A DNA stretch of 64,000 nt from Raillietiella orientalis. Its lineage: Eukaryota. Each line of letters opens with the position of its first letter. Position 1 is the first letter of the stretch. A program made the position numbers and the translations under genes. Positions 4,072 through 48,799 of the stretch are shown here, piece by piece. Location of the stretch: NCBI GenBank assembly GCA_036172245.1, contig JAYWIR010000037.1, forward strand, positions 1,488,001 through 1,552,000. Reading direction: 5' to 3'. Under the pieces are notes generated by a model. It was not told where the DNA came from and made no database searches. It was given only the letters and a program-made list of their open reading frames with translations.

Positions 4072-5950
4072 TGTTTTAACACGCTTACTCTGGGATGTTT
4101 ATTTAAAAATAAAGAAACACACAAATCACTGGGAACTCAGTTCCCAGAAATCAATGACAACAACAACAACAACAAGTTGCCAGAGAATGACCACCGCCCT
4201 TTCAAGAGAGTTCGGAGTAGGAATGGGGAGGCAATAAATAATTGAAAAAAAGGGGGGATAAGGACAGGGGTCTTTGGTGTTGTCAAGTGTTTTCTCCCTA
4301 GAGTTGGAGCTGGATGCAAGCGATCTCTCTGACGATTTCTTGGAGGTGAGGCCACCTTTCAGCCATCCTCATCAATGCAGCTGCCGTGCAGGTGGTCCTC
4401 CTTCGTCTGCGCCTCAGGCACACGGCGAGTTGTGACGGTGGTGCGGATGCAACAGATCACTGCGACCACGGTGGCTGCCGTAAGTCTTCTTTGCGTGAAG
4501 AAACACCACCGCATCACATCCATTGCGGTGTCCTCCGGTTTGTAGAGCGTCAAAGACAGCCTCTTGAAGAGTTCCTCGAGGACACTGCACTCTCCCAAGA
4601 GGTGCGGAAACGATCCCATCGCCCCACACCTTGAGCAATTTGGGGTGCAGCTTCCCCGGAAACCAGGTGCCTGCGCTGATTGTGCAATCCCCGGTGCAGA
4701 ACATCCCGTTTCCACCGCTACGGGAGTATTGCAGTGTACAAAGAAGGGACTTTGACTTCTTCGGAGATCGCACTCAGCAGCTCGCTGCACAGTTCTTTTG
4801 CCCGAGAATGAGCAGTGGCAACATCCACCAACTCATTTGTCTTCCAGCCATCAAGAAATTTTTCTACTCCTTCAGTTTTGCAAGAGAACTCTTACTCGCT
4901 TTTCGACGGCTATCATTGTCTGTCCATTGGGCAGACGGTGCTGCGGCTAAAGGTGCGATGGCTATCCGGGACCATTGGGTTCAGTCCTGTAGGATATCTC
5001 CCCCAGGTTAGGAAAAAATGTTGCCTGTGCAGCCGTGCGGCGAGGGCAATCGACGAGGGGAGGAGTTGCAAGCTCATCCAGAAGCGTCTCATAGACCAGT
5101 GCGTGCACAGAATGCAGAACATGACCAGGGTCTTCAGTGACGTCGGGCAGAGGCTGAAAAGCTACGAACATGCAAGCAGGAGTTTCGCACAGATGAGGCG
5201 GCGCTCGAAATGTCACGGAGCAGCTCCATCGCCGAAAGTTTGAGGTAGAGAGTCGATTTGTGGTGAGTGGTCGATTTCTAGTATTGATTTAGTAAGTGAT
5301 TCTGTACCGCTGCAAGTTCCTCGTATCAGCTCATCTCTGCTCAGAGATTTACCAGGAGCATCGATACTACCCGATGCTACTGCTCAAGGTTATTTGTTTT
5401 CTCTTTGCTTCTGGAAACTGTACAGCTTGTTCGGAAATTCCAAGCATCACTCCTCGTGTAGACGATAGGGGATGAACCATGCCCTATCGTCCACTATTCC
5501 TTCCACATCTACCGTTTACAGCCTGCATGAATGCAAACTTCCAGCGTTAAATTGTGCTCCAGAGTAACCGACGTTTGCTCAAAAGTCGCTGCAATATATT
5601 GGTCTGGTCTCACTCCGGAGGAATGATCGTCTTGACCTCGAACCGATGTAAGTGTTGTGATGACTGAAAGTGCTTGGAGCTGTTAGGAAACAACAACTAA
5701 AAGGGCAAGACGAAAGTACGGCAGGTCATTCATCTGTCTGCTTGCAGTTGATGAAACGGCATGTTTCCAGACGCTTGGCTGACTGTTAAGTGTGGTACAA
5801 TGCTCATGTTCATTTGATTTCCAGCTTCCAAGAAGTTTAGCCCTTCATCTCGGAAATGCTGTTGAAAATCTCACCAGAATTTACAGTGTGAAGTCTTACT
5901 GAAAAGCGATCACTTGAGCTGTGGTTGGTTTCAAGCTGAAAATCCAAAAG
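4072..5950 (-). mobile_element. Family A L1/Tx1-like element, old copy (RT remnant plus C-terminus and 3' UTR)
   Basis: ORF 4359-4790 contains NCSRCG...FPHLLGECSVLEELFKRL, homologous to 28420/52261. The 3' UTR shares AAAGACCCCTGTCC (4261-4276) and a decayed AATAAA terminus at ~4072-4103. An NG...G...PLS RT motif lies at 5460-5520. Confidence 0.75.
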
Positions 5951-8900
5951 CACCGAGGTACTCTCTATTAATTTTCTTCTGCTTCAGGAACAGACTTTTG
6001 GACTACAAGCAATGTGAATTTGCAGGCTTTGCTTCAATGACGTGTTTTTTTCCATAGTTTGGTTCTTCTATCAATAACTTCTCCAGCCTCGTTTGACAGA
6101 ATATATGGTTCTATTTATTCTATTCTGTTCTCCATAGGATCATTTGTTTTTTATCGTTCTGATTTTATCCTGTTATGTTTTTTATCCTGCTGATCTAATG
6201 CTTGAAGTTCAAACGGTGCTTCTTTGGATTCGACTTATTGGAAATACTGTGCTGCTCCAAAAACAGACGAAGAAAATTTAAAAAAATAATGACATTTATC
6301 CTGTTTAATTGCTATTCTTTGATTGAGCTCGAAATTCAATTTTCTATCGTGCAGCTCCTGCTTGCTTTACTCTTTCCCTTTTTCATACTTTCGTTTATTT
6401 ACCACTCATTTGAAAGTCACAAGAATAAGGCAACCCAAAGAGTGTCCAAGGATTGCCTCAATTTAATCCTTCCCAACACAAAAGTAGTCCTGCAGCGCTA
6501 ATACGTATATTGACGAGTTGTATAGAATTCTTTTACTTTGTGGAACCAGCCAGTTCCCATGCAAACATGTCAAGACCTCAGATATTTGCAATTCACTTTT
6601 GCAATCAACAAACCGCTTTGCTACCATCTTAGAGCTACTCTGCTTCGAAAATGAATGTTCAGTACCACGTGTAGTTTAAGATTTAAAATTTGACATTGGC
6701 GCATCACCACCCAATGTCATGGGTTTCTGAAAAGTTTATGATTTTTCTATTTCCTCAGCTTCCAAAGTTCACGTAATTGCTAGTCCTGGCACCGTGTATA
6801 CTGGCAGTTGCCATTCTTAAAGATTCGTTTATTTTGATCCCATCAAGATCCTTCGTGCTTTTCACTGTTTTATCATATCTCTAATCGGAACTTTTTCTTT
6901 GGAAATTTTTGGGGATCATTAGGTGAAGTCAAATAGAAATTATCCAGCGAAGATGGATGCCTTCTTCCATATCTGCGTTTCGTGCTTTCTGGATGCTCTG
7001 CATTAGCCAAGATGCTTCACTGAATTGCTTTTAAGCTATTGTGCAATTGCGAGCCTTTTCGTTCTTTTCTAAAATTCGCTAGTCACTGAATTAAATTGAT
7101 GTTCTTATTAAATCAGCAGATTTTAATTTGTTCACACTGTTTAGAATGCAATTTAGCTGCCTTCTCATATTCCTGTGATTTTTTTCACTGTCATCAAAAG
7201 AACAGTTATTTCTGAGAGAGAGGAACCTACCCATTGAAACTACTGCGTGTTGAATCTGTATCACATAAAGGATCAACTCTGAGATCAGTTGTTCACCAAT
7301 TTCGTTATCCATCATTCAGCCCCTTCAACGTCAGCGTACAGTAAAAATGATGGCTCCTGAGAAAGCACGAAAAGATTTGTAGTGATAATACATATACACA
7401 ACTCGGCCACGGTAAGAAACTTGAGGCCGTAGTAGAAGGATTCTCACTCCACCATCAATAAAATTTAGTCATGTTTTGTGATGGAACGCGTATCAGAATT
7501 CCAAAATGATCGATTTCATTATCTGCTCCACGTGGAGGATGAACAGATCAGAATCTAGTTAGAAATTTTCATTTTTAAGCGACGATACACCACTGATAAC
7601 ACATTACTCCTAATTCATAGAAAATGATCCAGAATGCAACGGTGATCGTCTAGGAGCCGGAACGTGTGTTTCCCAAACTGTTATCGGGAGAAATAGCGAG
7701 AAAACGGAGGAAAGCCGCAGCGCAAAATACTTTGTTGAAACCCAAATGTTCATCCCCTGCTCCAGAGTCCCTTTGTGCCACGCTCCCTGTACTCTTGCAT
7801 TGATTTTTTAAATTTTCAGCTACCCAAGGAAGTCCGACACGAAAAGCAAAGAGGCAGTGGGGTTTTGAACCGGATGCTGTTAGTCGTAGGGAGCATTTTC
7901 GAACGGACCCGCTCTTATGGGAACAACTGAAGAATTTTGACTGCCACTGGGACAGCAACCGATAATAAGACTTTGCCTTCATCCGCCCGAAAAACGAAGC
8001 CTTGTGCTTCACAACTGCATTACAAAAAGTTGCGGAAAATTCACCACCACCAACTTCCTTTGCTATGTCCCTGGAAGACCTCTGTCTCTCCATTCTTCCA
8101 TTACGCCATTAGACGTAGATGTAATGGCAGTCAAAGAGACGGGGAAAGTATATTATTTCATTTAAAAAGAAAAAGCTATTAAGGAACGAGGGTAACCATA
8201 GAATGGGCAGAAAAATAGCCGCAGTTTTTTTTTAGACTGGAATGTGCTCTACCCATCTTGTACAACCGCATGTACACAGCGTCTTTTCCTGATACAGCGA
8301 ATCTTTTACGACATGTCAATATATTTCCCTCATCAATGCATGCTGACAGCACACGAAATAGTAGTCGGCATCGGCATGTGGGTCATCAGGACGGGTACGA
8401 AAGGTTTCAAAGCACAACTCAGCCGGAAGTTTGGAGCGAAATGCTGGCAGAAATCGCGAGTAAGAACACGTTGGAGAACACACAGTTGGAGAACACGAAA
8501 TCCAAGCTGCTTTTCCGGAGGTTATGAACATAAGTGGAAAGTTTGAAGGCTTAGTGGAATCAGTTTGTTGGCGCTCGGAATTTGCAATGGTCCAATTTTC
8601 TTTTGAGATCGGAGATGGAATGCTCCAATGTTAAAAAGTTTCTTTGTGAAGAATGAGACTCAGAGAGAAAGGATTCAGTAGAGCCATTGATGCCAACTTT
8701 TCGTGGAAGAGGGATTTATCTTTTTTTCGGTGGATTTTTGTATTGGAGAGATTCTTCAAAGAGGACAAATAGGAAGAATTTCAAAACGAAAATCAAAAGT
8801 GCAATAGTCCTTGGATGCACCTATGAGCTGAATTAAGTTTTTTTCAAATATGCCATCGTGCAGTGAGATGCTCTCTGTCCGTCCGGACATTGGCTACTCT

Positions 8901-9082
8901 GCTGTTCTCGCAGATGAAAGCGTTGACTGCGAAAACGCATTTCGATAATGTCAAAAGTTCTTCACGATTAACTGCGAATACTGAATTTTCGAACGATTTG
9001 CTCGCCATTTTACGTTAAATCGACAGAACCCGAATGAGTTTTCCCTGCCTGGAATACTGAAGGATTAAGTTTAATGAGGAAG

Positions 9083-9720
9083 TCAATGGAAACATTTGAT
9101 GGCGATGAAAACATCGCAAGTCGATGGCTTCCATGCATCGATGCGGTGATCCGGTAAAGAAGTTGGGACAAGCATTGCAGATGTGCTGTCAGATGTATGC
9201 TTCAGGGACGTGGCAGAGCCAACGAGATGAACGTCCTTGAAAGCTCTCGCTCTCTGCTTATTCTCGGTGGAATCCAGATGAGAGCGTGAGCATTTGTAGA
9301 TCACTCTCGGTAGCATCCACAGTGGCACTCTGCTCCCTGAGTCACTGTGGGCCTTTACAACATCTCCAAAGGCAGGGGCTGGTCGCTCGCGCAGTCGTTG
9401 CTATCGACGTCATCCAAGAAAGTCTTTGCAGAAGGATAGCCAGACGAAACACTCTTCTCGATGCACCCACATTCCGTTTGCTTTGGTAGCCTCAAGCGCT
9501 GGTTCTTGGTATGTTCCAAGGAAGCTGTTGTGTTCCGATCGTGCCTGGCTCGATCCATCGTCAGGTACTGGGTGCTGCAAACGGTTCACCTCCCACTGAA
9601 TGTGTGTAGTAGCACGGAAGAAAAAGCATCCGGTCATCCAGATGCACCTCGATGCAAGAGACCATGCAGGAGAAAAAGTGCACTCAGCTTCCCTGAACGC
9701 CATGCTGCGGCGCACATCTA
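9083..9720 (-). mobile_element. Very decayed C-terminal fragment of a family A-related LINE
   Basis: HIQWEVNRLQH and TECGCIE resemble FIHWEFQCNERRH and CARCGSTE of the 62.8 kb copy. Weak. Confidence 0.4.
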
Positions 9721-9779
9721 TCGGAAGAAAATGAAGTGAGCAACTTGATCCACAAGCCTGAGAGACTGGAAAAGAGGGT

Positions 9780-10250
9780 GAGAGAGAACCAAGAAGTCAC
9801 AAGTTGTCACTTGCGAGGAAGAAGTGGAAGGGGCTATCCACTTTACGACTTATCGAGTCCGAGTGCAATGCAAAAAGAAGTCTTTCACCATTCTACCTTC
9901 CAGATGAGAATGGGAGAGAAGTTTTCCTATCATCATCATCACAGAGCCCTTTAGCGTGTTTGGGTGCTAGTTCGGATGAAACGAAGTCACGACTAGAAGT
10001 CCGTTGATCGTAAAGCAACTCCATACAGGAGTTGCTTTCGCTTCTAGAGGATCCCTGCCAAAGTTTTCCATCCTTGTCGAGGGAAGCTGCAGTCCAACAA
10101 GAGATAGAGAAACGGCTCGATCGTTTCGTGCTTGGTACAGTCTCTCCTTCTTGTCCAGAACTGCCAGAGTCTTGTGGAGTGTGAAGAAGAGGGTGATGAG
10201 AATCCCGAAGCAGTTATTTGGCAGTTGTTAAAACGAGGTTTCTTGGTGAT
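9780..10250 (-). mobile_element. Family A LINE C-terminal part (3' half of the copy split by the H3/28S block)
   Basis: Minus strand 10130-10060 reads ETIEPFLYLLLDCSFPRQGWKTLA versus ETLPHLLLDCSVLQGLWRRLA. A CTRAIDKA-like nucleotide match lies near 9850-9875. Confidence 0.65.
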
Positions 10251-10255
10251 CAGTC

Positions 10256-10491
10256 ATGATTCTCACGAAGCGAGCTGCGCGTAAGAGTACTGGTGGTAAG
10301 GCACCATGGAAGCAGTTTGCAAAGAAGGAGGCTCGCAAGAGTGCTACAACTATGGGAGGTGTGAAGAAGCTTCTTAGTTACCGACCAGAAACAACTGCCT
10401 TACGGTAGATTTGTCGTTACCAGAACATGGAACATCCGATTCGCAAGTTGCGTTTTCAACATCCAGTGAGCGAAAAGATGAAGATTTCAAG
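10256..10491 (+). pseudogene. H3: Histone H3 pseudogene, 5' part (codons 1 to ~79)
   Basis: Reads [72 protein letters not shown], then a frameshift to DFK. Colinear with canonical [57 protein letters not shown]... Confidence 0.95.
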
Positions 10492-10494
10492 AAG

Positions 10495-11227
10495 GAGGGA
10501 CGTTTCCAATGCTCGGCCCTTTAAAAAGCCAGCGAGGCTACCTCTCTGGGGAACTGGGATCGACTGAATCGTGTTCAAAGGCTGTTCGCATGGAACCCTC
10601 TTCCCACATCAGACCTCCAGGATCTCTAGGGAATATTCGCTGTCACCTCCAAGATCTGCTCCGATCGCGGCTCTAGGCGAGTTCCTGTCCAAACCCTTCT
10701 GCGCTCACCGTTGCGACCCTCCTACTCCCTGAAACCTGAGGAACCTGCCGTTCTCCGATGACCGTGCATCGGAAGGCAGAAACGTCTCGGTCTTAGCGGT
10801 CGGCTGTAGGGTCGGAGTTTGAGCGCCATCCGTTTTCTGGGGCAGTTGCTTCCTCAGGAGAGTCGTTGAACATTCCTCAGCAGATTTCGAGTTCCATGGC
10901 CACAGTCCCGCTCTCTATAGCAACCAACACCTTTCATGGGATCTGATGAGTGTTGCATCGGGCGCCGTAAGTCCCCGAGGTAGCGCCAGTTATGCTTGCC
11001 AAAATGAATCCACTGGGTGCTTATGAATCCGACAGTCGAGCTGCAGCAATCAAACAAGCCGGTGACTGACCATTGAAAGTTTGAGAACAGGTTGAGGTCA
11101 TTTCCACCCTAAGGTCTCGAATCATTCGCTTTACCGAACGAGCCTCGGTTCTCCTTCCATTTTGGCTAGCGCCAGCTATCCTCAGAGAAAATTGGGAAAG
11201 AATTAGCGGTTGCTAGATGATTCGATT
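10495..11227 (-). rRNA. 28S rRNA: Decayed internal fragment (~730 bp) of 28S/LSU rRNA; non-functional copy
   Basis: The plus strand matches the reverse complement of conserved LSU blocks in order: GGATCGACTGA, CCAAGATCTGC, CCCTCCTACTC, AGCGCCATCC, TTCCATGGCCAC, CAACCAACACCTTT, AAAGTTTGAGAA.AGGTTGAG, AATCATTCGCTTTACCG, GCGCCAGCTATCCT, CTAGATG.TTCGATT. Many substitutions fall in invariant positions. Confidence 0.95.
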
Positions 11228-11337
11228 TGATCAGCCTCTTCGGAGACACGAGTGTGTGCCTCATTCATGGCAAGCTTGCAACCATCGCGCCGGAAGATGT
11301 TCAGCTGACTCGCTGCGTCTGCGTCGAGCATGCTGAA
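11227..11337 (+). pseudogene. H3: Histone H3 pseudogene, 3' part (last 36 codons; stop position now GAA)
   Basis: LISLFGDTSVCLIHGKLATIAPEDVQLTRCVCVEHA versus [36 protein letters not shown], 18/36 identical and ungapped. Confidence 0.92.
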
Positions 11338-11339
11338 GA

Positions 11340-12400
11340 ACCGACGAATAGCGTTCGCTTGTTGCTCAAGAGAGGTTTTCACTACAGGTTGGAGTCCTGT
11401 TTCGTCGGGGAGCTCATTGTAAGCAGCGAACGCACCTCCATGCAAATTGAAGGCAGTTGCCATGTAGTCAGACTGCTGGCAGGAGAGATCCACTTTGCAA
11501 ACCTCTCCGGCCACTTGAGGAAGGGAAAAGACATGGAAAAAATGAATATATGTGGCATCCTTGAGTAGGGTATTGCAGAGTATTGAGGTATGGTAGATTA
11601 GTAGCAGGTGAGTTGCAGGCAACCAGCAGTAGCTGAACATCAATACAAAAAAGATCCGCGAGACGAGGACGGCGTTATCTTCAGAAGTAAATACAAAGAC
11701 AAAAGTGTGCAGTAAATCTCAAAAATGCACATGTGGGAAGAGAACAAACCACGTGTAATACACACAGGAGAAGACACTGTTTTGCTTACCGGCAACTCAG
11801 GAAACGAGTTCAAGAGGGACTCTCAGTGCTACGTGCTAATCAAGCTCTCTGAAAGATGGTATCTGATCAAGTTGTCAGCGATGGTTGGAGAAGGTGGCTG
11901 CGACTCACATCGACAAGCCAATACTTAGTGGAAGAATTTAAGATCCTTTGGCCCTTGAAGGAAATGTGATAGCAGCTGAGTTATTCCTCAAAAGCGACGT
12001 ATATGGAACAGAAGCTTGCCAAGGAACTTGTGGATTCTTTGAGCCACCTGCAGACTTCATGGTGCTCCTTGGAAACCCAGTAGTAGAGATTCCAACAGGG
12101 TTTCACCTACAAAGTATCTTGCAATGAAAACGAAACCCTTGGTTCCAATGCGGCTCCTGAGCACTTCGGGAAAAGCGACCTCTGTTAAGGCACGAATCAT
12201 TATTACTAACAAGAGGACAGTGAATCCATACAATCTCTCTGATGTTTCCTGGTACAGACAGTTCAGGTTCTCTGGAGCTCAAAGCACAACCGGAAAATTC
12301 CATCCGGCTCTAAGCTCGTGTGCTTTCCACTGTCTGACGACATGGATGGAAAGTGCAGCATCTTCGTCCTAGTCTAATCCTAGGGCAAGCTGTTTTGAAA
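11340..12400 (-). mobile_element. Family A LINE, RT/thumb and post-RT part (5' half of the copy split by the H3/28S block)
   Basis: Minus-strand nucleotide patches align in order with 62160-62730 (CTCT.GAAC, CCTGTGTG...GTGG, GTTC.GCT...GCAACTC.CCT, GCCGG.GAGG, GCGAAC). Degenerate LDxxxA, LLLVIMIRAL and ISFKG RT-region motifs lie at 11950-12380. Confidence 0.55.
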
Positions 12401-15400
12401 GTAAGTAAAGAGAAGCTCTTATTCTATTTTCTCCAACCAAGATGCATTTTATCTATAACTTCGGTTTGTGGAATTTGATTTGCTTTCTAAAGATCTGCTC
12501 AGTTCGTAAATCATTACTCGTGATTTTGTATCAGCAGAACACAGAGCGTGTGAGCAGTATGGTGGTACTTCCACTGACTAACCTTTACATATGAATAAGT
12601 TACATGGCTTAAAGACAATCTCAGTGATCAAACTAAAGGAGCAAGACCAGCAAGCGAATTTCCGCGAATACAGTAGATTTTGCAAAGCTTCTTCTGAAGG
12701 CTTCCTGTGACATTCAATGTTTTGATTGAATGAATAAGCATGTGGTACAAATGGTATGGAAAATCAGCAAGCAGCTTGGACCCCTTTTTTCAAGTGTATT
12801 TGAAAATTTGAACCCATGGGATCCAAAAGATCGTTGTTTATGAGAAAATTTCACTTTTTTGAACAGGTACTGCCTCTTGCATCCCTGCATCCCAGCTTTT
12901 AATAGCTCCACATCGATGCTTCGGAGCTCAGTGCAGCACTCCGTGATCTGACTCGAACTTCTGTGAAAATCACGTTGTTGGTCCATTGGAACTGATTGCC
13001 CGCTTCGGTGTCTTTTCCTCGTTCTTTCTTCGGTTCCAGTTTCGTGCAATCTAATTGATTGAACTTTCTACCCCTTCTAGCTTTTTTCCACCTCTGTGTT
13101 TGCTTTTATTCAAAAATCATTACTCACTAAATATGGAGCCGCCTTTTGGGAGCTAATAGCGCTTTGTTTCTGGTGGCAAGATTTGAATTGAAGTCTGACT
13201 TCGAGAGCAATGCTTTGTACTCCTCTGTTTTTAAATGGAGTGCTCAAATTAATAATGATTAGGTTTAATGAATTATGAATACAACAGAGCAGCTTGAAAC
13301 TACATCATCTTTCTTATAATTTCATGAGAAATTCACGCCAGCTATTTCATCCTTATTTTACTTTGAATGATTGGTAGTGTCGAATAGTGTACTTCTCCCA
13401 AATACCAATACTCAGATTGCTTCGAAGAGTAAAATATCGAAGTCCGTAAGTTCAGTGAAGAAGGATAAGGTCTTTCAAATAATGCATAACTTGGTTTCTA
13501 GAAATGCAACGAAAATTAGATTTTGCTCTGATATTCTCTATCTCTGCGAAGATTTAAACTGAAGGTGAATCATCAGGAAGCAAAAATTTGAAAAAGCACA
13601 AAAACACGAAGGAAAAAGAAGACGAAAGAAAAAAGCTCTCGGAATATAGAAGTTTCCATCATACATTCTTAAGATGACAGAAAATTCCAGAACTTTTACC
13701 GAGTCGCAGATAGTTAGTGAAGGCACACTATGCTGAGAAGGTATGAGAGGAAACTGATTTCTCTGTACATTGGCCAATGGACATGATGTAAAAAAAACAT
13801 ATTGAGAAGTCAACTACAGCTTCAGCGTTGTTTACATAAGAACAAACGAGCACAAAGCGATGAAATGTATTTGTCATAGCACAACTGAGCATCTGAAAAG
13901 GAATATAATCTTTATTAATGGGATACGGGATGTTTAGAAAACCGGAAATCATAAAAATCTCATTGGAAAAACATTTTGAAGAGTGAAAAACGATAAGCAG
14001 CACGAAGACAGAAAATGTGGAATGCTCATGTAGGAAATCTGCTAAAAGCAGTGCTGTAAGAATTTTGGAAATTAAAGGTTATAGACATTGGAGGTTGTCA
14101 TCGAGTATCTGTCACATTGTGAAGAACAACGAAAACCAAAAAAAAACAAAAACAAAAACAAATTAATTTCCCCATCATTATGCATCATTTTGTAACAACC
14201 TTAAAACCCGTAGCGGGTAACCAACGCATTCCACATGAAATGGAGTGAAATGCTGGTCGGTCTAAGCTGGAAATATGCCTACGAATCACACTTGGAATGG
14301 ATGGCATCTTATAACGGCGGGTGACATCAATCAGTTCAACAGGATCCCTGTGAGATGCTCTTTCGCCAAAACTCTTGCATCTTAGGAGCCAATTTAGTTC
14401 ATTTGCACTACAGAAATTACTGCTAACAGCAAACTAAATCACCTCCTTAGAGCGGCATACTAACATGACACTGTGGTCTAGGATTCCTGGCTCCAAAGAT
14501 TTAATGCACCGCACAAACAAAACTCAAACGATCCAAATCTTCAACTCTGACTCGGTTATATGGGTGTCGGATATTGCTCAGTGGGCGCGAGCTGAAGAAT
14601 TTTCATCTCATTAAAGGAAGAGGAACACCGTTTTAGTTACTTCCCATCGGTTCATCAAATCAGTTTTTGAAGGAAACGGAAAGGATACATTGCATAGGTT
14701 ACTCTGACTCATTTGGGAAATACACAAGTCTTCAGATTAACTACTGTTTAAAGGATGCTTACCAGACACTCCGATACATCTTATTAGGAACAGTATAGAA
14801 ACTGTATACAGATAAAGATGCATTCAAGTAAAGAGAAACGCAGATCAAGTCTCTGATAAATTAAGATTCCGAAATCGAGTATGAAAAGACTAGAAAGCAG
14901 GCTTTTTAAACACTGCAAAACAGTATGCCGGACAACGCGCCGGTGTTCCAAAAAAACAGCTGCCAGAAAGCTGGAAAACGTTCGTTCTTCGGGGGGCAAT
15001 GTGATGAACCGCCCATATTTGACGTCGGGATGTTATTGTGCTTCACCGTCGTAAGAATCACAGATACGCAAGTTGTATTAAGGTCGGAGTTTTTTTTACA
15101 AACGAATTCTGAAGGCATGCGTACATCAGCAACATTTGGAAATGTGGCAGCCAACATCCCAACAAACTTGTGGAGCACTTTTGAAGTATAAGGAACAAAT
15201 AATCGAGAGGGAATTTCCTGAAGTCTGGGAGAATTTAAGAACTTCTGATCTATCAAGAATTTCATACACTTTAGAAGTTCTCAAATTTCTCCGGAATTCA
15301 GGAAATTTCCTCCCCAGGATAATAAGCTCAGGGACACAAGTTCCTCACATGTTCAATTTAGGAACTTCGAAATTTGCAGGTCGCCGTCAATCGCATGCAG

Positions 15401-18010: not shown

Positions 18011-18115
18011 TTGCTTTATCGTTCCCCATTTTCGTCTATGCTCCTCGAAGGCCAGGAAAGATGCGAAGGGCTCAAGGCGTTCTCGTAGGTTTGCCGTATC
18101 GTTGCTGCCGGCTGT

Positions 18116-18436
18116 TTGTCACCCGGGTGCGCCGGGGCGTTTATTACAAACTATCCGGGAACAGAGTTCCCGGACAAAGGGGAAAACAAGATACGAAGGG
18201 GGTGGGATCCCCGACACGCAGGTCGGTATGCTGAAAGTCCGGAACGAAAGGGAGGGGACCACAAATACACTACTATAAAAAATAAAAATAAAAATATGGA
18301 GGGCAGGGGACAGGGGTCTTTGGTGAGTCCGTTCCTTCCTTTCAAAACCGGCGATGGATGCCGGCGATCTCTCTCCTTACGTCCTGTGGAAGATGGGCCC
18401 ACTCGGCAGCCGACGACATGCATGCGCTGGCTAATC
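18116..18436 (-). mobile_element. Family A young 5'-truncated copy (~320 bp)
   Basis: Highly similar to 28670-28973. Perfect 16 bp TSD CGTTGCTGCCGGCTGT at 18100-18115 and 18437-18452. No poly(A). Confidence 0.95.
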
Positions 18437-20399
18437 CGTTGCTGCCGGCTGTAAGATACAACAACGGAAACTCTTCAACAAGCACGTATGAAGATGGATG
18501 CACGCCGAACATGTTTGAGGAAGTACCATCGATGAGACACAGTTCTAGTCAGATTTAGCAAGTTGTGGCAAGTACCTCCGTCCACCTGGCCAAAAGGTTG
18601 GCGGAAGAAAGCTTCCTAAGATGTTGTCATCTTGCAAAATGGGCACTAGTTGATGCAGTGGCTGAATTAGATAAATCAAATGAAAGTAGTGGCAAAGACT
18701 CAACAGTGCTGCTTTTGCGGGACAACTTGGGACATCTGCTGCAAGGACAGAGGATGGGTAGCAAAAAGGGGGCCATAATTAATTGCTGCATTCGGTTGTA
18801 TCAGTTCCAAAAATAAAAGCTCAATATCAAGTAATATAATGATTATATTCAGCAGCCTTGGCAAGCAGCGCATCACACTCCTTTGCTCAACAGAACTGCT
18901 GTTTTTGTGTGCCATGCTTGGCTTATGCAATCTTAGGTACTTGTGCTGCGGTGCAGAAGAGTTTCCTACTTTTTGTATAGTCAAACAAAATGTCGGATTA
19001 TGTTTGACTACACAAAAAGTATATCATTGTCACAATCCTTTTGTCATTGTTTGTTGTATGTCCTTAAATAAGGAGTCCTACAAATAAACACGCTAGCACT
19101 GGGAAAAAAAAGATACTACGAAGAGGAATGATTCTTACATCATATTCCTAAGAACGTCTTTGACGTTCTAAGAAGATGTGGATTCCTTGTTCTTAGGATG
19201 AACATATTGTTGATGTGGGAATGCGTGAAATACTAAATATGAGCCATGCATCTGAAAAACGCCATTAGTCTGTCTTCGTGCAGTTCTGTACGGCTATGTA
19301 GCTGCCCTCCAGATCTTTGAGTATAAACTGCTCAAATTCCATCTTCAAAGTTTCCTTGTAACAACCAAACGAGTGATGCAGTTTAGGAGCCAGAGCAAAA
19401 GAGGAAATCTGGTAAGCTTTATAAGGAACTTCTGAATATCTGTTCTTCTGAATGCCTTTTGAGCGCACTTTTGAGTCTTTGCTTCTCCTTGAAAGCATCA
19501 ATCGTATTTTCGGTAACCTGATCGTTCGGATGGGTTTCCCGGAAACATTCTGCTCCACGTCACGAAACTGCAATTTTCAAAACTCGACAGACATTCAGAA
19601 GAATGCAACTGTAAAATTTTGCTGCTGCTGAAAAATGTGATGTCTCTTTGAAGAAATATCAGATCGAGATGATTCCGATTGCGAAATTCGTTGGGTGCGA
19701 AATGATTGCAGATGAAACTCGTAAGTACTCAGTTTTGAAGAAAAGTACTGTGCTTTTAGCTCTGTGCTGGGTTTAATCATGGTTACCTTCATTCATTATG
19801 ATTGCTATTGGTTTCACTCACTACAGCTGAATTGCAACTGCGTCTTTCACGGATATTGAAGTAAGTGCATAAGCTGTATACTGGCTCAAAGCAATGAGAA
19901 GTGATGAGACTGTATACTTCTTACCTCAACTCGCATCTGTATGACAATTACCTGTCATCTTAAATTCCTTCGGAGACATTACAATTATCTCTTTTGAATT
20001 CCAATTTGGAATGCAATTCACATGTATCGTTGGAATTGCAATGTCTAACGACCACACTCTACATGATAGAAAACTCAAATTCGATTAACTTGCATGTTTG
20101 ACAATGTACAATTTCTAATGCAACTGTTTTTGATCGATTTTTCGTATTAGGGAATGGTCCATATTTCTTGATTCTGTCATGTCTTTTCTCTCTCCATGGA
20201 GCATACGGCCATTTCATGGTGTATCTTCTGTTTTGTCTGGCAAGTGAAATTCAAAACTATCATGAATCTGGACTTATCACGACTTGTTGCAACTGCATCC
20301 TGATCAAGATAAACCAGCTTCCTAGGATAGGGTCCAAGAGAAGCAATATATTCATATACTATAAATAAAGAACCCAGCAATTCCAGAATGAGGAATCAC

Positions 20400-22953: not shown

Positions 22954-23593
22954 TTTTCCCCAAAACCCACAAGGGGTGGGGTGAATTTATTTTTGCATTT
23001 TTAAACATTCATACTATAGTTTCATTCGCACAATCACTTTCGCTTCACTTGAAGGTCCGTTGGGATATTCAAAGTTCTGCATTCAGGGTGGGTTTCCAGA
23101 TGTTTGGTTCCGGGCGTCGTCCTCAATCCTCTTCAGGATGAATCGGTACGTCCAGGCTTGGAGTCGTCCACAGTTCCTGATTCCAATCTCCCTGCGGATA
23201 AGTCCTTGTAGGATCTCCATGGGGGTTCTGGTTCTCCTGGCTTTTCTCATATTCCACCACCGCACACGTATGGCGGTGAAGAGGGCAATGGTCATCCTCA
23301 CCATGGGATTGTAACAGGGAACATTACCATCTCCCTGAAACATCCCGGCGAGGATTTCCATCACAGACTTGTTGTTGTGTCCTATGATCCTTTTCAGGAT
23401 CAGCCAGTCTCGTAGCAAAGTGGGACACGTCAAGATGTGTAGTCTCGTATCGATGTCTCCACATGCCGTGCAGTCTTCATCTTCCCTTCTCCCTGTGAAG
23501 TGCTTGAGCCTGGACCCGGTCTGGATTCCTCCATGGTAGAACATCAGGAGGTCGTCCAGAGTGTCCAGCGCAAGGTCACTCCTCCAGAGTACC
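22954..23593 (-). mobile_element. Family B L1/Tx1-like young 5'-truncated copy (640 bp) with open C-terminal CCHC-type frame
   Basis: ORF 23083-23544 contains HGGIQTG...CTACGDIDTRLHILTC...W. Perfect 15 bp TSD TAATGGGTACCTCAA at 22939-22953 and 23594-23608. It ends in AATAAA, a GC hairpin and A4. Confidence 0.92.
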
Positions 23594-27624: not shown

Positions 27625-28076
27625 GTGAGTTTGCATTTTGCTATCTGGATGAGTTTAAGCCTTCTTGAAGGTTTATTGGTGCACAGGTTGCACGAATGTT
27701 TTCCATTTTTCCCCAAGTGGAATGCTTTTTTTTTTTGTTTTGAAAACTACGCAGCCATCATGCTGTCTGCCTGATTCCAAGCTTGAAAAGCAGATGTGCA
27801 TTTAAATTTTAAATACAGAAAAGAAACTCAACTTCAATAACAGGCAAGCGGTCCTGGTATTGGACATCATGAAACAAAAGTCAACAGCCTGATTTTATAA
27901 AACATCACCAAAAGTGTCCATGCACACAGTAAAAACCTCATGTCCGTAAATGCCAGGAAACGAGATAATGTGAGCAATGAATGCATTAGAGCAGATATGC
28001 TGTGAAGAATTGATACTTCAGGTTCGCTAAAGATGATATGCCTCTGCAATATGCCTTCACTATAGATACATCTCAC

Positions 28077-28973
28077 GCGCTGTCAGCCAGCAAGTGATGA
28101 CAGCTGCCTACCGGCGATGTAGGAGGTCGCCTGCAACATCGCAGGAGCAACCCGACCCATAGGTGGCTGGAGGACTTGCTAACTGGCAGACACCTCCATG
28201 CCTCGCATCATCCCCAAGGGACTCCTTCGGTGGAGCGAACATTTGAGTGTGCCCCCCGAAGAATTTGTGGTCCCTCTCTCCTGTTTGAACACTTCTGTGT
28301 TCCCCCTTTCTTGGAAGCAGGACGTCATCATGCTGGTGCATTGAGGTGTTCACTCCAGCCATCGGACGAACCGTGTTTCCGGGGGAGTTGTCTCCCCGAA
28401 CTGTGAACGGTGCGGGAAAGTGGAAACGCTACCGCACCTGCTCTTGGACTGCAGTGTCCTCCAAGGACTGTGGCGGAGGCTGGCCTCAGCTCTCCAGGAC
28501 CAGGGGGACACCGCAAGAGACTTGGTGCGCCGCTTCTTCACGCCAGGCAGCCTGTCCTTGGGTGCTGTCATCGCAACGGTCTGTTGCACCCGCGCCATCG
28601 ACAAGGCCCACCGAGAGCTGGAGAAGCAGGCGATTCGTCGACAGGCCACCGGAATAGCCGACGAGAACATGACGTCGGCTGCCGGTTGGTCTCATCTTCC
28701 AGAGGACATAAGGAACGAGATCTGCGGCATCCATAGCCGGTTTTAAAAGAAAGGAACTGCCCAAACCAAAGACCCCTGTCCCCTCCCCTCTTCATATCTT
28801 AATTTCTATTTTTTATATGGGCATTTGTGGTCCCCTCCCTCCCGTTCCGGACTTTCGGTTTACCGACCTGCGTGTCGGGGATCCCCCCCTTCGTTTCTTC
28901 TGTGTCTTTTGTCCGGGAATTCCGTTCCTGGATAGTTTAGCAATAAACGCTCCGGCTGACCCGGGTGAGAAAC
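28077..28973 (+). mobile_element. Family A young ~0.9 kb copy (ORF2 C-terminus plus structured 3' UTR)
   Basis: Contains CERCGKVETLPHLLLDC. 13 bp TSD AGATACATCTCAC at 28064-28076 and 28974-28986. Near-identical in inverse orientation to 52036-52913. Confidence 0.95.
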
Positions 28974-31165
28974 AGATACATCTCACAGAGGCATGATCAA
29001 GGAATTTTCAATGAATTCATGAGATCGCCCGCTATGAATTTGCCATTTATTATGAGGGTTCTAATCAGAGTGCCCTTCCAGTTTCAAAGAATCGTTTTTG
29101 CGAAAGCTTGCAAGAAACTGAGGATGGAAGAGCGTTTCAGTTTTTGAAAGTAACAAATTATTTTATAACAAGGGCGAGAGTCGAGCGCTTCTTGAGAACC
29201 TATGCTGAGCCAACACGAGTTGCTTAGTAATCTCATAGGCATGCTGTGCAATTAAGAATTTGATCAAATGTCTCAAAGTGGAAACCGAGTTGAATCTTGA
29301 CTGAATCTTGAGTGAGTGAATCGTATTTCACCCTTGAAGTTTAAACCAATGTCTGTCTATGTTTCATACCTTCAGTTCGCTTTTCTGAGGCAGCTGAAAG
29401 GATCGTGACACTGGTATGAAAAATTCAATGCCAGGCTTTCCTAAAGAGGACAGGCAAGAACTCCCTTAATGAAAATCTACTGCAGGAAAAGAAGAAGAAA
29501 AAAAAAAAACCTCATTATCGAGAATGCAAACTGCAGGCTTACGGCTTTTAATTGAAGTGCACTTGAATTTCAAACTGATTAATAGCTTTCGTCACGAACG
29601 CACTCTGTTTGGCCTTTTACGTATCCTTCATACCCTTGGTGGAGGAAGTTTGCTATTCCTGAGCAGCACGGCTACTATTAACAGCTCTGATATTTTCTAT
29701 TAAGCTAAACTTAGATCCCGTGAGTTCAGGAAATGAGGGGCTTTCTGAGCTGTCAATGGCGACTGTACGCCAAGAAGCTTATTGAAAATTTCCATTTCGC
29801 ACCTTGGGATATAATTTTTAGTAGCTCCTTCCATGAATCTAAAAAAAACGAGCAAATAATGTCTGGACCACGACGGATGCGAGGGAACTTCACACGCTAA
29901 AAATATAATAATGGACGGTATAAAGCATAATACAAGTAGTTGTGGATTCGGAAGATCTTTCAGGAAACTGATTTCCATTCCAAACAAAAAACGCTTGACG
30001 AGAGAGCAGTCCGGGTGACTCAATAAAAATGGCTATTTGGATTGGATAAGAGGACGGAGCTCATAAGTCCCTTTGGTTCGCAGCTCTTCAGAATTGGCTT
30101 TATTTGCATAAGGAACAATCGATTGCATGTGAATTTGCTTTAAAAAGGAAAAAATACATCCGTTTAGAAATCCTCTTCAACACAAAGTCTGTTCTTGTTT
30201 CTCTGATAAATTAGCCGATAGCCCTGCCTTTAGAGCTTGCAACGACTGTGTTGATGAGAGGAACAAGCATTAAAAGTCTTCGGAGCATTTTCAGCAGCAA
30301 ATTTCTCCACTTTCAACTTCCGACTGCAAGATGACGGTGACGAGTTGACATTTCAAGCTATTAACTTCGTTTCATGAGCTTCTTTCTTCGAAGAGATGAC
30401 TTGAACTGCTTATTTCTCAAGAGGGGCTCCTGGAAGGTCTTTTAGAAGAAATGCAGGATTGTCGAAGCATCCATTTGGAACCAATAGTTAAGGAAACTCT
30501 TCCGACCAATTCTCAATCCTCAAATTGAGTTCCACTTTTCATGTCGCTGCTGCTTATATCTTTGTGTCAGGAAAAACTGCTCACATAGTGTTTTACTGGC
30601 AAAAGAGCAAGAAGCTCGGTGAAGCCTTTGGAAGTTCGGCACACCTACACTTGAAAGTGAGCACCTATTCAAAACCGTAAAGCACTATCAGAAAGACCTC
30701 GGAAAATTAGTGGAAAATAATCTACATCAAGGTTCAAATATTCCAAAAATTGAAGAAAAAAAATTCTCAACTGTTGCAACATGGGTACAAATATTAAAAC
30801 GGAAACTGGAATCTAGGATTCCAAAGAATCCCAAGAAAATATGGGTCCATGAATAAAGCTTTTTGTGAAAGCGAAGATAACACCGGGTACTAGTTGCAGG
30901 TGCATCTACAGTACAGGTTATAATAAAAGAGGTCAATTCCTTGGAGCACCAAGTAGGATGAAAATACAATGCTGGATTTTTTAAAGAGAATCTATGACCT
31001 TATCTGACTGATTGCTTCTAGCAACAGCTTCGTGGCGGCATTTCCTCTCACAATAAGGGTACCGTGAAATGAGCACGAAACCTAAAGATAAAAAGGCTGA
31101 AAAAGGTTGAGTGTTATTACTATCTTGTCTCTGATGGATGAACATCAAACATTATCAATGAATTT

Positions 31166-34228: not shown

Positions 34229-35570
34229 TTAGGATTTAAGTGGCGGAGATCTGCACGTCCCCTCGAGGCTTTGCACGGAGGACGAAATCACCCGTAACAA
34301 GGGATTATACAAGGGGAAAACTCCCTCTCCTTCGAAGAGTTCTTGGACGATCTCCAATCGTGGTTGATCTTGTAGATCCATCTCCTGCTTGACTACTTTG
34401 AAGCTATTAAGAGGGTCCAACATGTGCGCAGGTGGAGTGGGACTTTTATACTCCCACATGAGGGGCAGTCTGCATAGGTCAGATGTCGAGTCCTTGTGCC
34501 TCACACGATCCTCCCGTGAAAAAACATCAGGAGGCAGTCCCGGGTTTCTGGCGACAGCTCGGGACCCTAAATTAGGATCCCTGTGGTCATTGGGTTTAGG
34601 GGCTGTTTCCTCAGCCTTCTCCATATCTTTGTCGAAGAGTCTTCGGCGTTACTTTTTGACTTGAAGAGGGCATTCATTGCACACAATTCTACTCTGAACC
34701 ACCGGGAGCCCTAGTCTTGATGTTCACGGGTTCGATCAATCATCTACTCTTTCAGCAAGCGGTTGTAGTCAAGCATTTTTCTTACGTGGGTGTGTTCCCA
34801 CTGATGGCAAACTGTTCGCATTCTTAGATGGTGTCTTCCACCTCTCGAGCCATTTTTCTGTGGCAGACAGTACGCTAATAAACAGTGAAATGTGCTTGCC
34901 AGCTCCTTGCTACAGAATTCTCTGCTTTTCGAAACAATCATTAATTTCTTCTGTTTTAGCAGGTCTCGTTTTTCATTTTTTTTTCCAGTGTAGGATATAT
35001 TAGGTTCCACCATCCTCCTGTTAGTCGAGACATCAGGACGTCGAACGCGTTGTGTCACCTGGAGACTCGGTGGAACACGTAGGGAGATCGGTCCCAGGCG
35101 GTGGCGTGCCTGATGAACTGTCGCAGTTCCTGGAGTTGGGTGGTGTGCAACCACATGGCTCATGCCGGTGCCTTCTTCCTGGTACGGCCGACGCAGATAC
35201 TTTGGTCTGAAAGTCTGTTTCTGGTCGATTCAGGTGAAGTGCTGTTGGATGTTGACCTTCTTCGGCATGTCGAAGAAGACTGCCCCGAACTGCAACTTGT
35301 GTGCTGGCAGCTCATTCCATTGACCTTCTCTTTCAGGGGGAAGTTCGCTTCTCGGTAGTCCATGCTTTGTTTTCCAGCTGTTGCCAGGATATTCTCCCAT
35401 TGGAGTGCCAGTGGTGTTTCCAATGTGAACTCCTAGGTATGTATTTTGCTTCTCCTGCTATTCTGAATCCGTTGGATTTCAGAAGAGTGATGGCCAGGTT
35501 GCCGACCGTGATGATATATGCACTGGATCCATTTATCTGCTTTCTAGGTCCAATGTTCTTAAATTCTTAA
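34229..35570 (-). mobile_element. Family B decayed copy (RT thumb to C-terminus)
   Basis: LEIVQELFEGEGVFPLYNPLLRV matches MEILAGMFQGDGNVPCYNPMVRM of 23083-23544. KYIPRS/YLG-like (~35440) and ANFPLKEKV (LSLKGK-like) motifs lie upstream. Confidence 0.7.
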
Positions 35571-48706: not shown

Positions 48707-48799
48707 ACAGCCTCAGTCGCATCCGCATTTGGAATCAGCATGCGAATAAAGCGCACTTTTTTTTTTTGGCCGACAAAAAAGAATAAGTTGATGCTTACT

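What the first reader, a model, noticed from the sequence alone, without database searches (positions are those of the whole stretch)
9780..12400. Triple nest: 28S rRNA fragment inside a histone H3 copy inside a LINE
Seen: an H3 pseudogene (10256-11337, +) is cut after about codon 79 and resumes at about codon 100. The missing ~20 codons are replaced by ~730 bp of antisense LSU rRNA. On both sides lie consecutive parts of one minus-strand family A LINE (RT/thumb on the right, HLLLDC region on the left). The H3 part runs almost exactly from ATG to the stop position, and I see no UTR, histone stem-loop, poly(A) or TSD. Known: LINE RTs can template-switch onto abundant cellular RNAs, and double-strand-break repair can capture cDNA or DNA. 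Inference: two abundant non-polyadenylated RNAs (or their tandem-array genes) were captured inside a LINE that itself lacks a poly(A) tail. The 28S is sense and the H3 antisense relative to the LINE, so a single pass of template switching does not explain it simply.
Basis: partly seen in the sequence, partly recalled or inferred. Interest (0 to 1): 0.8.

Follow-up and report, generated by a model that had tools for sequence, protein, structure and literature searches.

The report
Dead H3 copy split by rRNA
An old, dead copy of a histone H3 gene has a 680-base piece of large-subunit ribosomal RNA inserted cleanly into it and sits next to a worn LINE remnant; this is ordinary genomic debris made by reverse-transcriptase accidents, not a three-layer nest.

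Summary
The core observation holds. A decayed H3 coding sequence lies at 10256-11337 (+). It is interrupted by a eukaryotic LSU rRNA fragment on the minus strand (Rfam 185.5 bits).

Two parts of the description are wrong.
- No 20 codons are replaced. H3 runs to Tyr99 (about 10541) and resumes at Leu100 (11227). The ~671-686 nt LSU piece is therefore a clean insertion between two adjacent codons.
- A LINE is detectable on the left side only. It is a zinc-knuckle remnant at 10047-10190 (-), with profile E 9e-6 (protein) and 4.6e-6 (DNA). Six tests found no RT/thumb on the right flank.

H3 and LSU are about equally decayed, at roughly 0.2 changes per site. This argues against an assembly chimera of live genes. 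It does not separate one event from two.

Best reading (0.45), in two steps:
- H3 cDNA became joined head-to-head to a 5'-truncated non-poly(A) LINE, which is the twin-priming topology.
- Separately, 28S rRNA was reverse-transcribed from a break inside H3.

The main rival is three independent insertions (0.33).

No genome or reads were available, so copy number and junction support remain untested. Interest is low: a new member of known kinds.

The parts
10047..10190 (-). Remnant of the C-terminal zinc-knuckle region of an APE-type non-LTR retrotransposon (LINE). It reads ...SSHSTRLWQFWTRRRDCTKHETIEPFLYLLLDCSFPRQGWKTLAGIL. The second Cys is lost.
   Evidence: A protein profile built from tblastn matches at 7 places in the window (six LINE copies plus a 3' fragment at 18345-18443) gives E 9e-6, 22.8 bits; apart from ORFs of those copies it is the best hit among 2191 ORFs. 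nhmmer DNA profile: 10057-10141, E 4.6e-6. tblastn to copies at 57267-57347, 28345-28743 and 52264-52662 gives E 2e-4 to 3e-3. The family is identified as a LINE through P0001 (RVT_1) and P0010 (Exo_endo_phos + RVT_1 + zf-RVT).
10191..10255 (.). Unassigned 65 bases between the LINE motif and the H3 ATG. They could be more LINE, the H3 5' UTR or filler. The LINE/H3 junction lies somewhere in here.
   Evidence: No significant similarity to LINE copies or references. UTRs are not conserved, so an H3 origin cannot be tested.
10256..10541 (+). H3 pseudogene part 1, Met to Tyr99. Lesions: Glu50 is a stop (tag, 10406-10408); the Lys56 codon is lost; a 1-nt frameshift at 10475-10479; a 3-codon deletion within Ala88-Ala91; Gln93 is a stop (taa, 10522-10524); 1 nt is lost in the Tyr99 codon.
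   Evidence: PDB phmmer E 1.2e-12. tblastn with P0012, P0014 and P0022: 10250/10256-10474, E 2e-22 to 5e-24; 10480-10569, E 0.003-0.011, including 'AL*KASEA' against 'ALQEASEA'. Codon-by-codon table.
10542..10556 (.). Left junction zone, ambiguous between three readings: H3 codons 100-102 (a possible ~9-nt target-site duplication), LSU sequence just past CCUAAG, or a shared microhomology (H3 GCCTACCT-like against LSU-rc GCCTATCT-like).
   Evidence: Reading. It cannot be resolved without the host's own 28S and H3 genes.
10557..11227 (-). LSU (28S-type) rRNA fragment, Rfam model about 928-1550. It runs from AAUCGAAyCAUCUAG to GUCGAUCC(C)AG, the CCUAAG motif at the start of expansion segment D7a. 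It is a decayed pseudogene.
   Evidence: Rfam RF02543, 185.5 bits; alignments. blastn against 12 metagenome LSU loci: 8 of 12 start at 11227, and in the 5 loci whose alignments reach the lower end, all end at 10557. In the MAFFT alignment with 5 of those 12 loci, 68 of 323 reference-invariant columns are changed and 5 deleted. Beyond 11227, 24 of 37 differ, as for unrelated sequence.
11227..11337 (+). H3 pseudogene part 2, Leu100 to Ala135 (11227-11334) plus the former stop codon position (gaa, 11335-11337). Base 11227 is shared with the LSU end.
   Evidence: PDB phmmer E 8.1e-6. Pfam Histone E 0.005, below the cut-off. tblastn E 1.5e-8 to 1.8e-9 for P0012 and P0014 over 36 codons, and E 3.1e-8 for P0022 over 29 codons to 11313.
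11338..12400 (.). No detectable LINE, RT, histone or repeat similarity.
   Evidence: tblastn with ORFs of eight stretches of the window holding LINE-like copies (six of this family, two of the second family): only noise. P0001 and P0010: no hit at E<=10 in the whole window, and best E 0.14 in the 5-kb region. Pfam on 117 ORFs of 8800-13600: only Histone. Protein and DNA profiles: nothing on the minus strand. blastn self-comparison: no repeat.

Best explanation
This is an old, non-functional composite built in at least two steps by stray reverse transcription of abundant non-polyadenylated RNAs.

Step A (inferred). A LINE of the window's non-poly(A), APE-type family inserted by target-primed reverse transcription and was 5'-truncated just upstream of its zinc knuckle. 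The opposite DNA end primed cDNA synthesis on a canonical histone H3 mRNA, starting near its 3' end and running to its 5' end. The two cDNAs were then joined. This 'twin priming' gives exactly the observed topology: read on the LINE's sense strand, H3 is antisense from stop to ATG and abuts the truncated 5' end of the LINE.

Step B (anatomy shown, mechanism inferred). A nick or break between H3 codons Tyr99 and Leu100 exposed a plus-strand 3' end. That end paired by a few bases with 28S rRNA at the start of expansion segment D7a and primed reverse transcription back to about model position 928. The cDNA end was ligated to the Leu100 side with 1-2 nt of overlap. The result is a clean ~680-nt insertion, antisense to H3, with no loss of H3 sequence.

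All parts have since decayed by about 0.2 changes per site and do nothing now.
For: Shown:
- H3 is colinear from Met to Ala135. Tyr99 ends part 1 and Leu100 starts part 2.
- The LSU fragment is bounded at 11227 and 10557.
- The LINE zinc-knuckle remnant on the minus strand lies 65 nt from the H3 ATG, head to head.
- The LINE family ends without poly(A).
- Decay is similar: H3 has 57 minimal nucleotide changes in 129 codons, calibrated to d ~0.19-0.20 (range 0.16-0.24). LSU has 68 of 323 invariant columns changed, 0.21.

From the literature (passages read; 10.1101/2025.02.02.635956):
- In human L1 chimeras, same-orientation parts are ascribed to template switching or RNA ligation, and opposite-orientation parts to twin priming.
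- 5S, tRNA and U5 parts are mostly antisense to the L1.
- 2 of 17 mRNA/L1 chimeras are antisense.
- 18 28S/L1 chimeras are known.

Inference:
- The plus strand reads H3(1-99), then the complement of LSU starting from the LSU 3' end. This is the polarity expected if the H3 plus strand primed the LSU cDNA.
- The LSU 3' end falls on the CCUAAG motif. PMC12880105 (passages) gives this as the start of D7a, the segment that holds the natural 28S 'hidden break' in many invertebrates.
- Rough chance estimate from about 11 LINE fragments in 64 kb: a truncated LINE 5' end within ~100 nt of a given H3 end, in this orientation, is expected in a few per cent of cases.
Against: - No target-site duplication, endonuclease site or LINE 3' end could be identified for either step.
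- The LINE is supported only by a ~145-nt motif, so its extent and its junction with H3 are unknown.
- H3 UTRs cannot be recognised and no histone stem-loop was found. RNA origin of H3 is therefore not shown, because canonical H3 genes are intronless anyway.
- Twin priming is documented for mammalian L1. I know of no demonstration for this LINE type (recalled, not searched).
- The LSU fragment could equally be rDNA or cDNA captured by end joining without any LINE enzyme.
- The adjacency of H3 and LINE may be chance in a repeat-rich region.
- Equal decay does not order the events.
- There is no genome and no reads, so I cannot say whether this is a single locus or one copy of a repeat family.
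Confidence: 0.45

Rival explanations
1. Three unrelated events piled up by chance in repeat-rich DNA. An H3 pseudogene arose by any route, an rRNA fragment later landed in it (as cDNA or DNA filler at a repaired break), and a LINE happened to insert, or be truncated, next to the H3 start.
For: The window is dense in LINE debris: about 11 fragments, roughly 15% of 64 kb. No TSD ties any two parts together. The finding was picked from a very large scan for oddity, so rare coincidences are expected. Dispersed rRNA-derived fragments are known in genomes (introduction of 10.1101/2025.02.02.635956).
Against: My rough estimate for a head-to-head LINE 5' end within ~100 nt of the H3 ATG by chance is a few per cent. 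H3 homology begins at the ATG and ends at the stop position, with no detectable gene flanks or other histone genes within 8800-13600. That fits a cDNA better than a genomic duplication. H3 and LSU decay are equal.
Confidence: 0.33
2. A pre-existing LINE copy was split by insertion of the H3+LSU block, so the LINE continues on both sides (RT/thumb on the right, zinc knuckle on the left).
For: The left motif is genuine LINE. At ~20% decay plus frameshifts, the less conserved thumb region could escape detection; the zinc knuckle itself scores only 22.8 bits.
Against: Six tests found nothing on the right flank:
- ORFs of eight stretches of the window holding LINE-like copies, six of this family and two of the second family.
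- P0001, which covers RT to thumb and matches copy 61318-62463 at E 6.6e-75.
- The full-length LINE P0010.
- Pfam on 117 ORFs.
- Protein profiles of the thumb and the pre-knuckle region.
- A 1.1-kb DNA profile.
Confidence: 0.1
3. One complex event. A single retrotransposition intermediate (twin priming plus template jumps onto RNA and cDNA) assembled LINE, H3 and 28S together. Alternatively, an H3 gene already carrying the LSU insert was transcribed and that chimeric RNA was copied next to the LINE.
For: H3 and LSU have equal decay. All parts are of RNA types that are abundant. Multi-jump chimeras are described: the tripartite pseudogene in Magnaporthe, PMC2104539 (search listing and start of abstract only).
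Against: LSU lies inside H3 in the opposite orientation. RNA-to-RNA jumps in one cDNA keep orientation (passage), so four junctions and a strand inversion would be needed. The variant with a pre-interrupted source gene needs an extra unobserved locus.
Confidence: 0.08
4. Assembly chimera. Reads from rDNA, histone arrays and a LINE were wrongly joined.
For: rDNA and histone genes are tandem arrays that assemblers handle badly. No reads could be laid, because none was listed.
Against: Both parts are heavily mutated relative to functional sequence: two stops, two frame breaks and about 0.2 changes per site in H3, and 21% of invariant LSU columns changed. Reads from live arrays would be intact. 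H3 resumes at exactly the next codon after the insert.
Confidence: 0.02

Closest known systems
Twin-priming chimeric LINE-1 insertions (antisense 5S rRNA, tRNA, U5 or mRNA joined to a 5'-truncated L1)
   Same: A foreign RNA copy lies in inverted orientation directly at the truncated 5' end of a LINE. The source RNA is abundant. Passages read in 10.1101/2025.02.02.635956: opposite orientation is ascribed to twin priming, and 2 of 17 mRNA/L1 chimeras are antisense.
   Different: The LINE here is a non-poly(A), stringent-looking family in a non-identified eukaryote. The partner is a whole H3 coding sequence. No TSD or endonuclease motif could be shown, and contemporaneous arrival is untested.
28S rRNA/LINE-1 chimeras and dispersed rRNA-derived pseudogene fragments
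   Same: An internal, 5'- and 3'-truncated piece of LSU rRNA has been copied into the genome. It is in the same orientation as the nearby LINE, as in 83% of the 18 human cases.
   Different: The fragment is not joined to the LINE. It sits inside H3, about 300 nt from the LINE. Its length of ~680 nt exceeds the 50-482 nt range reported there. Its 3' end lies at the start of D7a, whereas the human fragments often start around position 3636 of the 28S consensus.
Template-switch chimeric retrogenes (U6-L1 type; tripartite pseudogene of Magnaporthe, PMC2104539, listing and abstract start only)
   Same: Copies of different cellular RNAs are fused with a LINE 3' part and no intervening genomic DNA.
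   Different: Those chimeras keep all parts in one orientation. Here H3 is inverted relative to both LINE and LSU, so this defining feature is not met.
cDNA or filler-DNA capture at double-strand breaks, and endonuclease-independent LINE insertion (recalled from the literature, not read here)
   Same: The target interruption is clean, with at most a few bases of microhomology, no poly(A) and no clear TSD, as at the two H3/LSU junctions.
   Different: It cannot be shown here whether a LINE RT, another polymerase or plain end joining of an rDNA fragment was responsible.

Membership tests
Histone H3 (Pfam PF00125), canonical type | Full-length colinear similarity to H3 | tested here: met
   tblastn with 3 real H3 proteins covers Met-Glu73, Gln76-Tyr99 and Leu100-Ala135. 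PDB phmmer E 1.2e-12 and 8.1e-6.
Histone H3 (Pfam PF00125), canonical type | Open reading frame able to encode the protein | tested here: not met
   There are two in-frame stops, a 1-nt frameshift, lost codons and a 680-nt insert. 57 minimal nucleotide changes in 129 codons. It is a pseudogene.
Histone H3 (Pfam PF00125), canonical type | Replication-dependent signature (Ser87 and neighbours; 3' stem-loop) | tested here: inconclusive
   Residues 85-87 read Q-C-S, matching canonical Q-S-S; the next three codons, within Ala88-Ala91, are deleted. No stem-loop by Rfam at E<=1. The pattern scan gives only a chance hit inside the CDS. The diagnostic residues are recalled knowledge.
Eukaryotic LSU rRNA (Rfam RF02543) | Covariance-model score above the gathering threshold | tested here: met
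   185.5 bits against 50, E 3.4e-46.
Eukaryotic LSU rRNA (Rfam RF02543) | Complete molecule with conserved core intact (a functional gene) | tested here: not met
   Only model positions ~928-1550 of 3401 are present. 68 of 323 columns invariant in 5 real LSUs are changed and 5 deleted.
APE-type non-LTR retrotransposon (the window's LINE family) | C-terminal zinc-knuckle motif of the family | tested here: met
   Protein profile E 9e-6. DNA profile E 4.6e-6.
APE-type non-LTR retrotransposon (the window's LINE family) | Reverse transcriptase/thumb upstream and the family 3' UTR downstream, colinear with the motif | tested here: not met
   No RT or thumb in 8500-13500. No 3' UTR match in the locus. 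Only a fragment is demonstrable.
Template-switch chimeric retrogene | All RNA-derived parts in the same orientation, fused directly | tested here: not met
   H3 is +, while LINE and LSU are -.
Twin-priming chimeric LINE insertion | Inverted segment abutting the 5'-truncated end of the LINE | tested here: met
   The H3 ATG at 10256 faces the LINE motif ending at 10190, on opposite strands. The 65-nt gap is unassigned.
Twin-priming chimeric LINE insertion | One TSD flanking the whole insertion, and simultaneous arrival of both parts | not testable with these tools
   The LINE 3' end was not found. No convincing direct repeats. No genome or related loci for timing.

The most novel reading that the evidence does not exclude
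A LINE that recognises its own 3' end rather than poly(A) produced, in one retrotransposition intermediate, a multi-template product. Its own truncated cDNA, a twin-primed full-length copy of a non-polyadenylated histone H3 mRNA and a cDNA of the 28S-alpha half-molecule primed near its natural 'hidden break' 3' end in D7a would all have been joined together. This would be a natural record of how stringent-type LINE enzymes use free 3' ends of abundant RNAs.
Probability: 0.07. Interest if true: 0.55.

Novelty: new member of a known kind. Interest (0 to 1): 0.22.

Why it matters
The practical impact is small, because the locus is dead sequence. Its value is as a clean worked example. An rRNA fragment is inserted between two adjacent codons of a histone pseudogene. 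The polarity points to priming from the broken target strand, and the rRNA end sits at the start of D7a.

If further copies or orthologous empty sites were found, the locus could show two things:
- whether non-poly(A) LINEs outside mammals make twin-primed chimeras with histone mRNA;
- whether the natural 28S break supplies templates.

For annotation, the lesson is that the 'LINE on both sides' and 'replaced codons' readings were artefacts of reading by eye.

Tried and rejected
- Whole-genome search: no genome is held for this window.
- Public sequencing runs for 9780-12400: none was listed. No reads or contigs could therefore be laid, and assembly support, copy number and host rDNA stay untested.
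- Earlier findings by place, sequence and words: nothing.
- Word-based protein search with the LINE C-terminal ORF and the RT ORF, longer lengths: 0 hits each.
- The listing of cluster members for P0001, P0010 and P0008: the query could not be made because the database is switched off. The source organisms of the LINE references are unknown.
- blastn of 8500-13500 against the window: no repeats.
- Pfam on 27, then 134 larger ORFs of the window: only weak RVT_1, zf-RVT and Histone hits, and no host gene.
- tRNA idea for 11342-11408: Rfam 21.8 bits, below the threshold of 29. ARAGORN finds 0 genes in the window. Fold z -1.24. Rejected.
- Histone stem-loop: 87 pattern matches in the window against 109 expected. 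The 1-mismatch hit at 10515-10530 lies inside the H3 CDS and does not fold (z 0.01). Rejected.
- A weak plus-strand nhmmer hit at 11398-11437 (E 0.26, 1.7 bits) and a tblastn hit at 11332-11397 (E 0.15-0.95): treated as noise.
- An rDNA-specific LINE (R1/R2-like) as explanation: rejected. Only 1 LSU match exists in the window, while there are about 11 LINE fragments.
- Other H3 copies or other histone genes nearby: none seen.
Full report
WHAT IS THERE

The window is eukaryotic DNA rich in decayed LINE copies. No whole genome is held for it and no sequencing run was listed.

Rfam finds exactly one RNA family match above threshold in the 64 kb. It is eukaryotic LSU rRNA on the minus strand at 10659-11202, scoring 185.5 bits against a gathering score of 50. 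Relaxed scans extend the good alignment from about 11229 (model ~928) down to about 10557 (model ~1550).

I fetched twelve metagenome contigs carrying real LSU genes, using a 20-mer from the fragment. In blastn, 8 of the 12 alignments start at 11227. In the 5 loci whose alignments reach the lower end, all end at 10557. In a MAFFT alignment with five of them, columns beyond 11227 differ at 24 of 37 reference-invariant positions, as expected for unrelated sequence. Inside the fragment, 68 of 323 such columns differ and 5 are deleted.

THE H3 COPY

The plus strand from 10256 (ATG) encodes a recognisable histone H3.
- PDB phmmer gives E 1.2e-12 for H3 residues 3-49 and 8.1e-6 for residues 100-133.
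- Pfam Histone is weak, E 0.005, below the cut-off.
- I obtained real H3 proteins from the protein collection and ran tblastn on the locus. It gave three colinear matches:
  - Met-Glu73 at 10256-10474 (E 2e-22 to 5e-24);
  - Gln76 onward at 10480-10569 (E 0.003-0.011);
  - Leu100-Ala135 at 11227-11334 (E 1.5e-8 to 1.8e-9 with P0012 and P0014; P0022 aligns 29 codons to 11313, E 3.1e-8).

The middle match is the key correction to the finding. After Ser87 there is a 3-codon deletion. The sequence then reads 'AL*KASEA' against H3 'ALQEASEA', followed by the remains of the Tyr99 codon at 10540-10541. Part 1 therefore ends at Tyr99 and part 2 begins at Leu100.

Nothing was replaced. The LSU piece (671 nt secure, up to 686) is a clean insertion between two adjacent codons.

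The other lesions in H3 are two stops (10406-10408 and 10522-10524), the loss of the Lys56 codon and a 1-nt frameshift at 10475-10479. The former stop codon position (11335-11337) now reads gaa.

THE JUNCTIONS

- Right junction. The LSU reverse complement ends ...TTCGATT and H3 continues TTG ATC. The overlap is 1-2 nt.
- Left junction (10542-10556). This is ambiguous. The stretch can be read as H3 codons 100-102, which would make a ~9-nt target-site duplication. It can also be read as LSU just past its CCUAAG motif. H3 (GCC TAC CT) and the LSU reverse complement (GCC TAT CT in two of the reference LSUs) are themselves alike there, which would be a microhomology. I cannot resolve this without the host's own genes.
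- Polarity. The plus strand reads H3(1-99), then the complement of LSU beginning at the LSU 3' end. This is the arrangement expected if the broken H3 plus strand primed a cDNA on 28S rRNA.
- D7a. The LSU 3' end coincides with the CCUAAG motif. PMC12880105 (passages read) describes this motif as the start of D7a in all pancrustaceans examined. D7a is the expansion segment that contains the 'hidden break' of many invertebrate 28S rRNAs. This is a lead, not a result, because neither the organism nor its break site is known.

THE LINE

The window holds a LINE family with copies at about 4234-5390 (-), 27768-28975 (+), 52032-53228 (-), 56899-58093 (-), 58848-60187 (-) and 61282-63563 (+). There are also short 3' fragments at 18112-18390 (-) and 48440-48710 (+).

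An exhaustive HMMER search with the RT ORF of the longest copy (61489-61926) gave 10 proteins at E<=0.001. They include P0001 (619 aa, 54% identity, RVT_1) and P0010 (1274 aa, Exo_endo_phos + RVT_1 + zf-RVT). The family is therefore an APE-type non-LTR retrotransposon. Four 3' ends share a ~280-nt UTR that stops at ...CCCGGGTGACAAACAG without poly(A).

In the locus, only the zinc-knuckle region is detectable, at 10047-10190 on the minus strand.
- A protein profile built from tblastn matches at 7 places in the window (six LINE copies plus a 3' fragment at 18345-18443) gives E 9e-6; apart from ORFs of those copies it is the best hit among 2191 ORFs.
- A DNA profile gives E 4.6e-6 for 10057-10141.
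- The family 3' UTR is not found in the locus.

On the right flank (11338-12400) every test for LINE sequence failed:
- tblastn with ORFs of eight stretches of the window holding LINE-like copies, six of this family and two of the second family;
- P0001 and P0010, with no hit at E<=10 in the whole window and best E 0.14 in a 5-kb database. P0001 matches copy 61318-62463 at E 6.6e-75 in the same run;
- Pfam on all 117 ORFs of at least 30 aa in 8800-13600, where only Histone appears;
- protein profiles of the thumb and pre-knuckle regions;
- a 1.1-kb DNA profile.

The picture of 'consecutive parts of one LINE on both sides' is therefore not supported. I cannot exclude it. At this level of decay the best-conserved motif itself only reaches 22.8 bits.

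AGE

For H3 I counted, codon by codon against a real H3, the minimal nucleotide changes needed. There are 57 in 129 codons. Simulation of neutral decay calibrates this to about 0.19-0.20 differences per site, with an acceptable range of 0.16-0.24. For LSU the figure is 0.21 at reference-invariant columns, or 0.25 with Jukes-Cantor correction.

The two parts are thus equally old within error.
- This rules out a mis-join of reads from live rDNA and histone arrays.
- It is compatible with the insertion having killed a then-intact H3 copy, or with both being simply very old.
- It cannot order the events.

MECHANISM

Read on the LINE's sense (minus) strand, the order is:
1. right flank;
2. H3 antisense from stop to codon 100;
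3. LSU sense;
4. H3 antisense from codon 99 to ATG;
5. 65 unassigned bases;
6. the 5'-truncated LINE.

An inverted foreign cDNA abutting the truncated 5' end of a LINE is the signature ascribed to twin priming in human L1 chimeras (passages in 10.1101/2025.02.02.635956). In that work 5S, tRNA and U5 parts are mostly antisense. [quoted passage not shown] Same-orientation parts are ascribed to template switching or ligation.

I therefore favour a two-step history (0.45):
- H3 cDNA and LINE were joined in one twin-primed insertion.
- The 28S cDNA was captured separately at a break inside H3.

The LSU part cannot come from an RNA-to-RNA jump within the H3 cDNA, because its orientation is opposite.

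Rivals:
- Three independent events (0.33).
- A single multi-jump event or a pre-interrupted source gene (0.08).
- Misassembly (0.02).

Not shown: any TSD, the RNA origin of H3 (canonical H3 genes have no introns, and no stem-loop or poly(A) is seen), and the enzyme responsible for the LSU capture.

COMPARISON AND VERDICT

Each element has a known counterpart:
- antisense RNA/L1 twin-priming chimeras;
- 28S/L1 chimeras, of which 18 are known in human, 50-482 nt long and 83% sense;
- template-switch chimeric retrogenes. The Magnaporthe tripartite case, PMC2104539, I saw only as a listing and abstract start;
- cDNA or filler capture at breaks (recalled).

The locus fails the defining 'same orientation' feature of template-switch chimeras. 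It meets the topological feature of twin priming, while the TSD and timing features are untestable here.

It is a new example of known kinds of accident, in a LINE type and host for which I know of no described case. I ran no dedicated literature search for histone-LINE chimeras beyond, whose listings showed none.

Interest is low.

Noticed in passing
window 10012-10038: A perfect 11-bp inverted repeat (AAAGCAACTCC / GGAGTTGCTTT) with a 5-nt loop. RNA fold -19 kcal/mol, z -5.85, 0 of 200 shuffles as stable. It lies just downstream (in LINE sense) of the zinc-knuckle remnant, in sequence that is otherwise about 20% decayed. Origin unexplained.
   Followed up: partly
window 11342-11408 (+): A weak tRNA-like match directly after the H3 stop position: Rfam tRNA 21.8 bits (threshold 29), E 0.11, with a 7-bp acceptor-like stem. 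ARAGORN finds no tRNA in the whole window and the fold z is -1.24. Probably chance.
   Followed up: yes
window 10515-10530: GGCCCTTTAAAAAGCC matches the histone 3' stem-loop pattern with 1 mismatch. It lies inside the H3 coding sequence (codons 87-95 after the 9-nt deletion) and does not fold (z 0.01). This is a look-alike created by the GGCC repeats of the H3 CDS.
   Followed up: yes
window 28698-28975 (+), 52032-52309 (-), 18112-18390 (-), 48440-48710 (+): Four 3' ends of the window's LINE family share a well conserved ~280-nt 3' UTR. It ends at ...CCCGGGTGACAAACAG with no poly(A) or microsatellite tail. Two of the four are short 5'-truncated fragments. This suggests a LINE that recognises its own 3' end.
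   Followed up: partly
window 27768-28975 (+) and 52032-53228 (-): Two LINE 3' parts about 23 kb apart in inverted orientation are 87-99% identical at the protein level. That is far closer than the other copies (35-50%). They are either young insertions of one subfamily or an inverted duplication.
   Followed up: no
window 23086-23592 (-) and 34107-34527 (-): A second repeat family with a weak similarity to the LINE C-terminal profile (E 0.047) and mutual tblastn similarity (E 5e-16). Not characterised.
   Followed up: no
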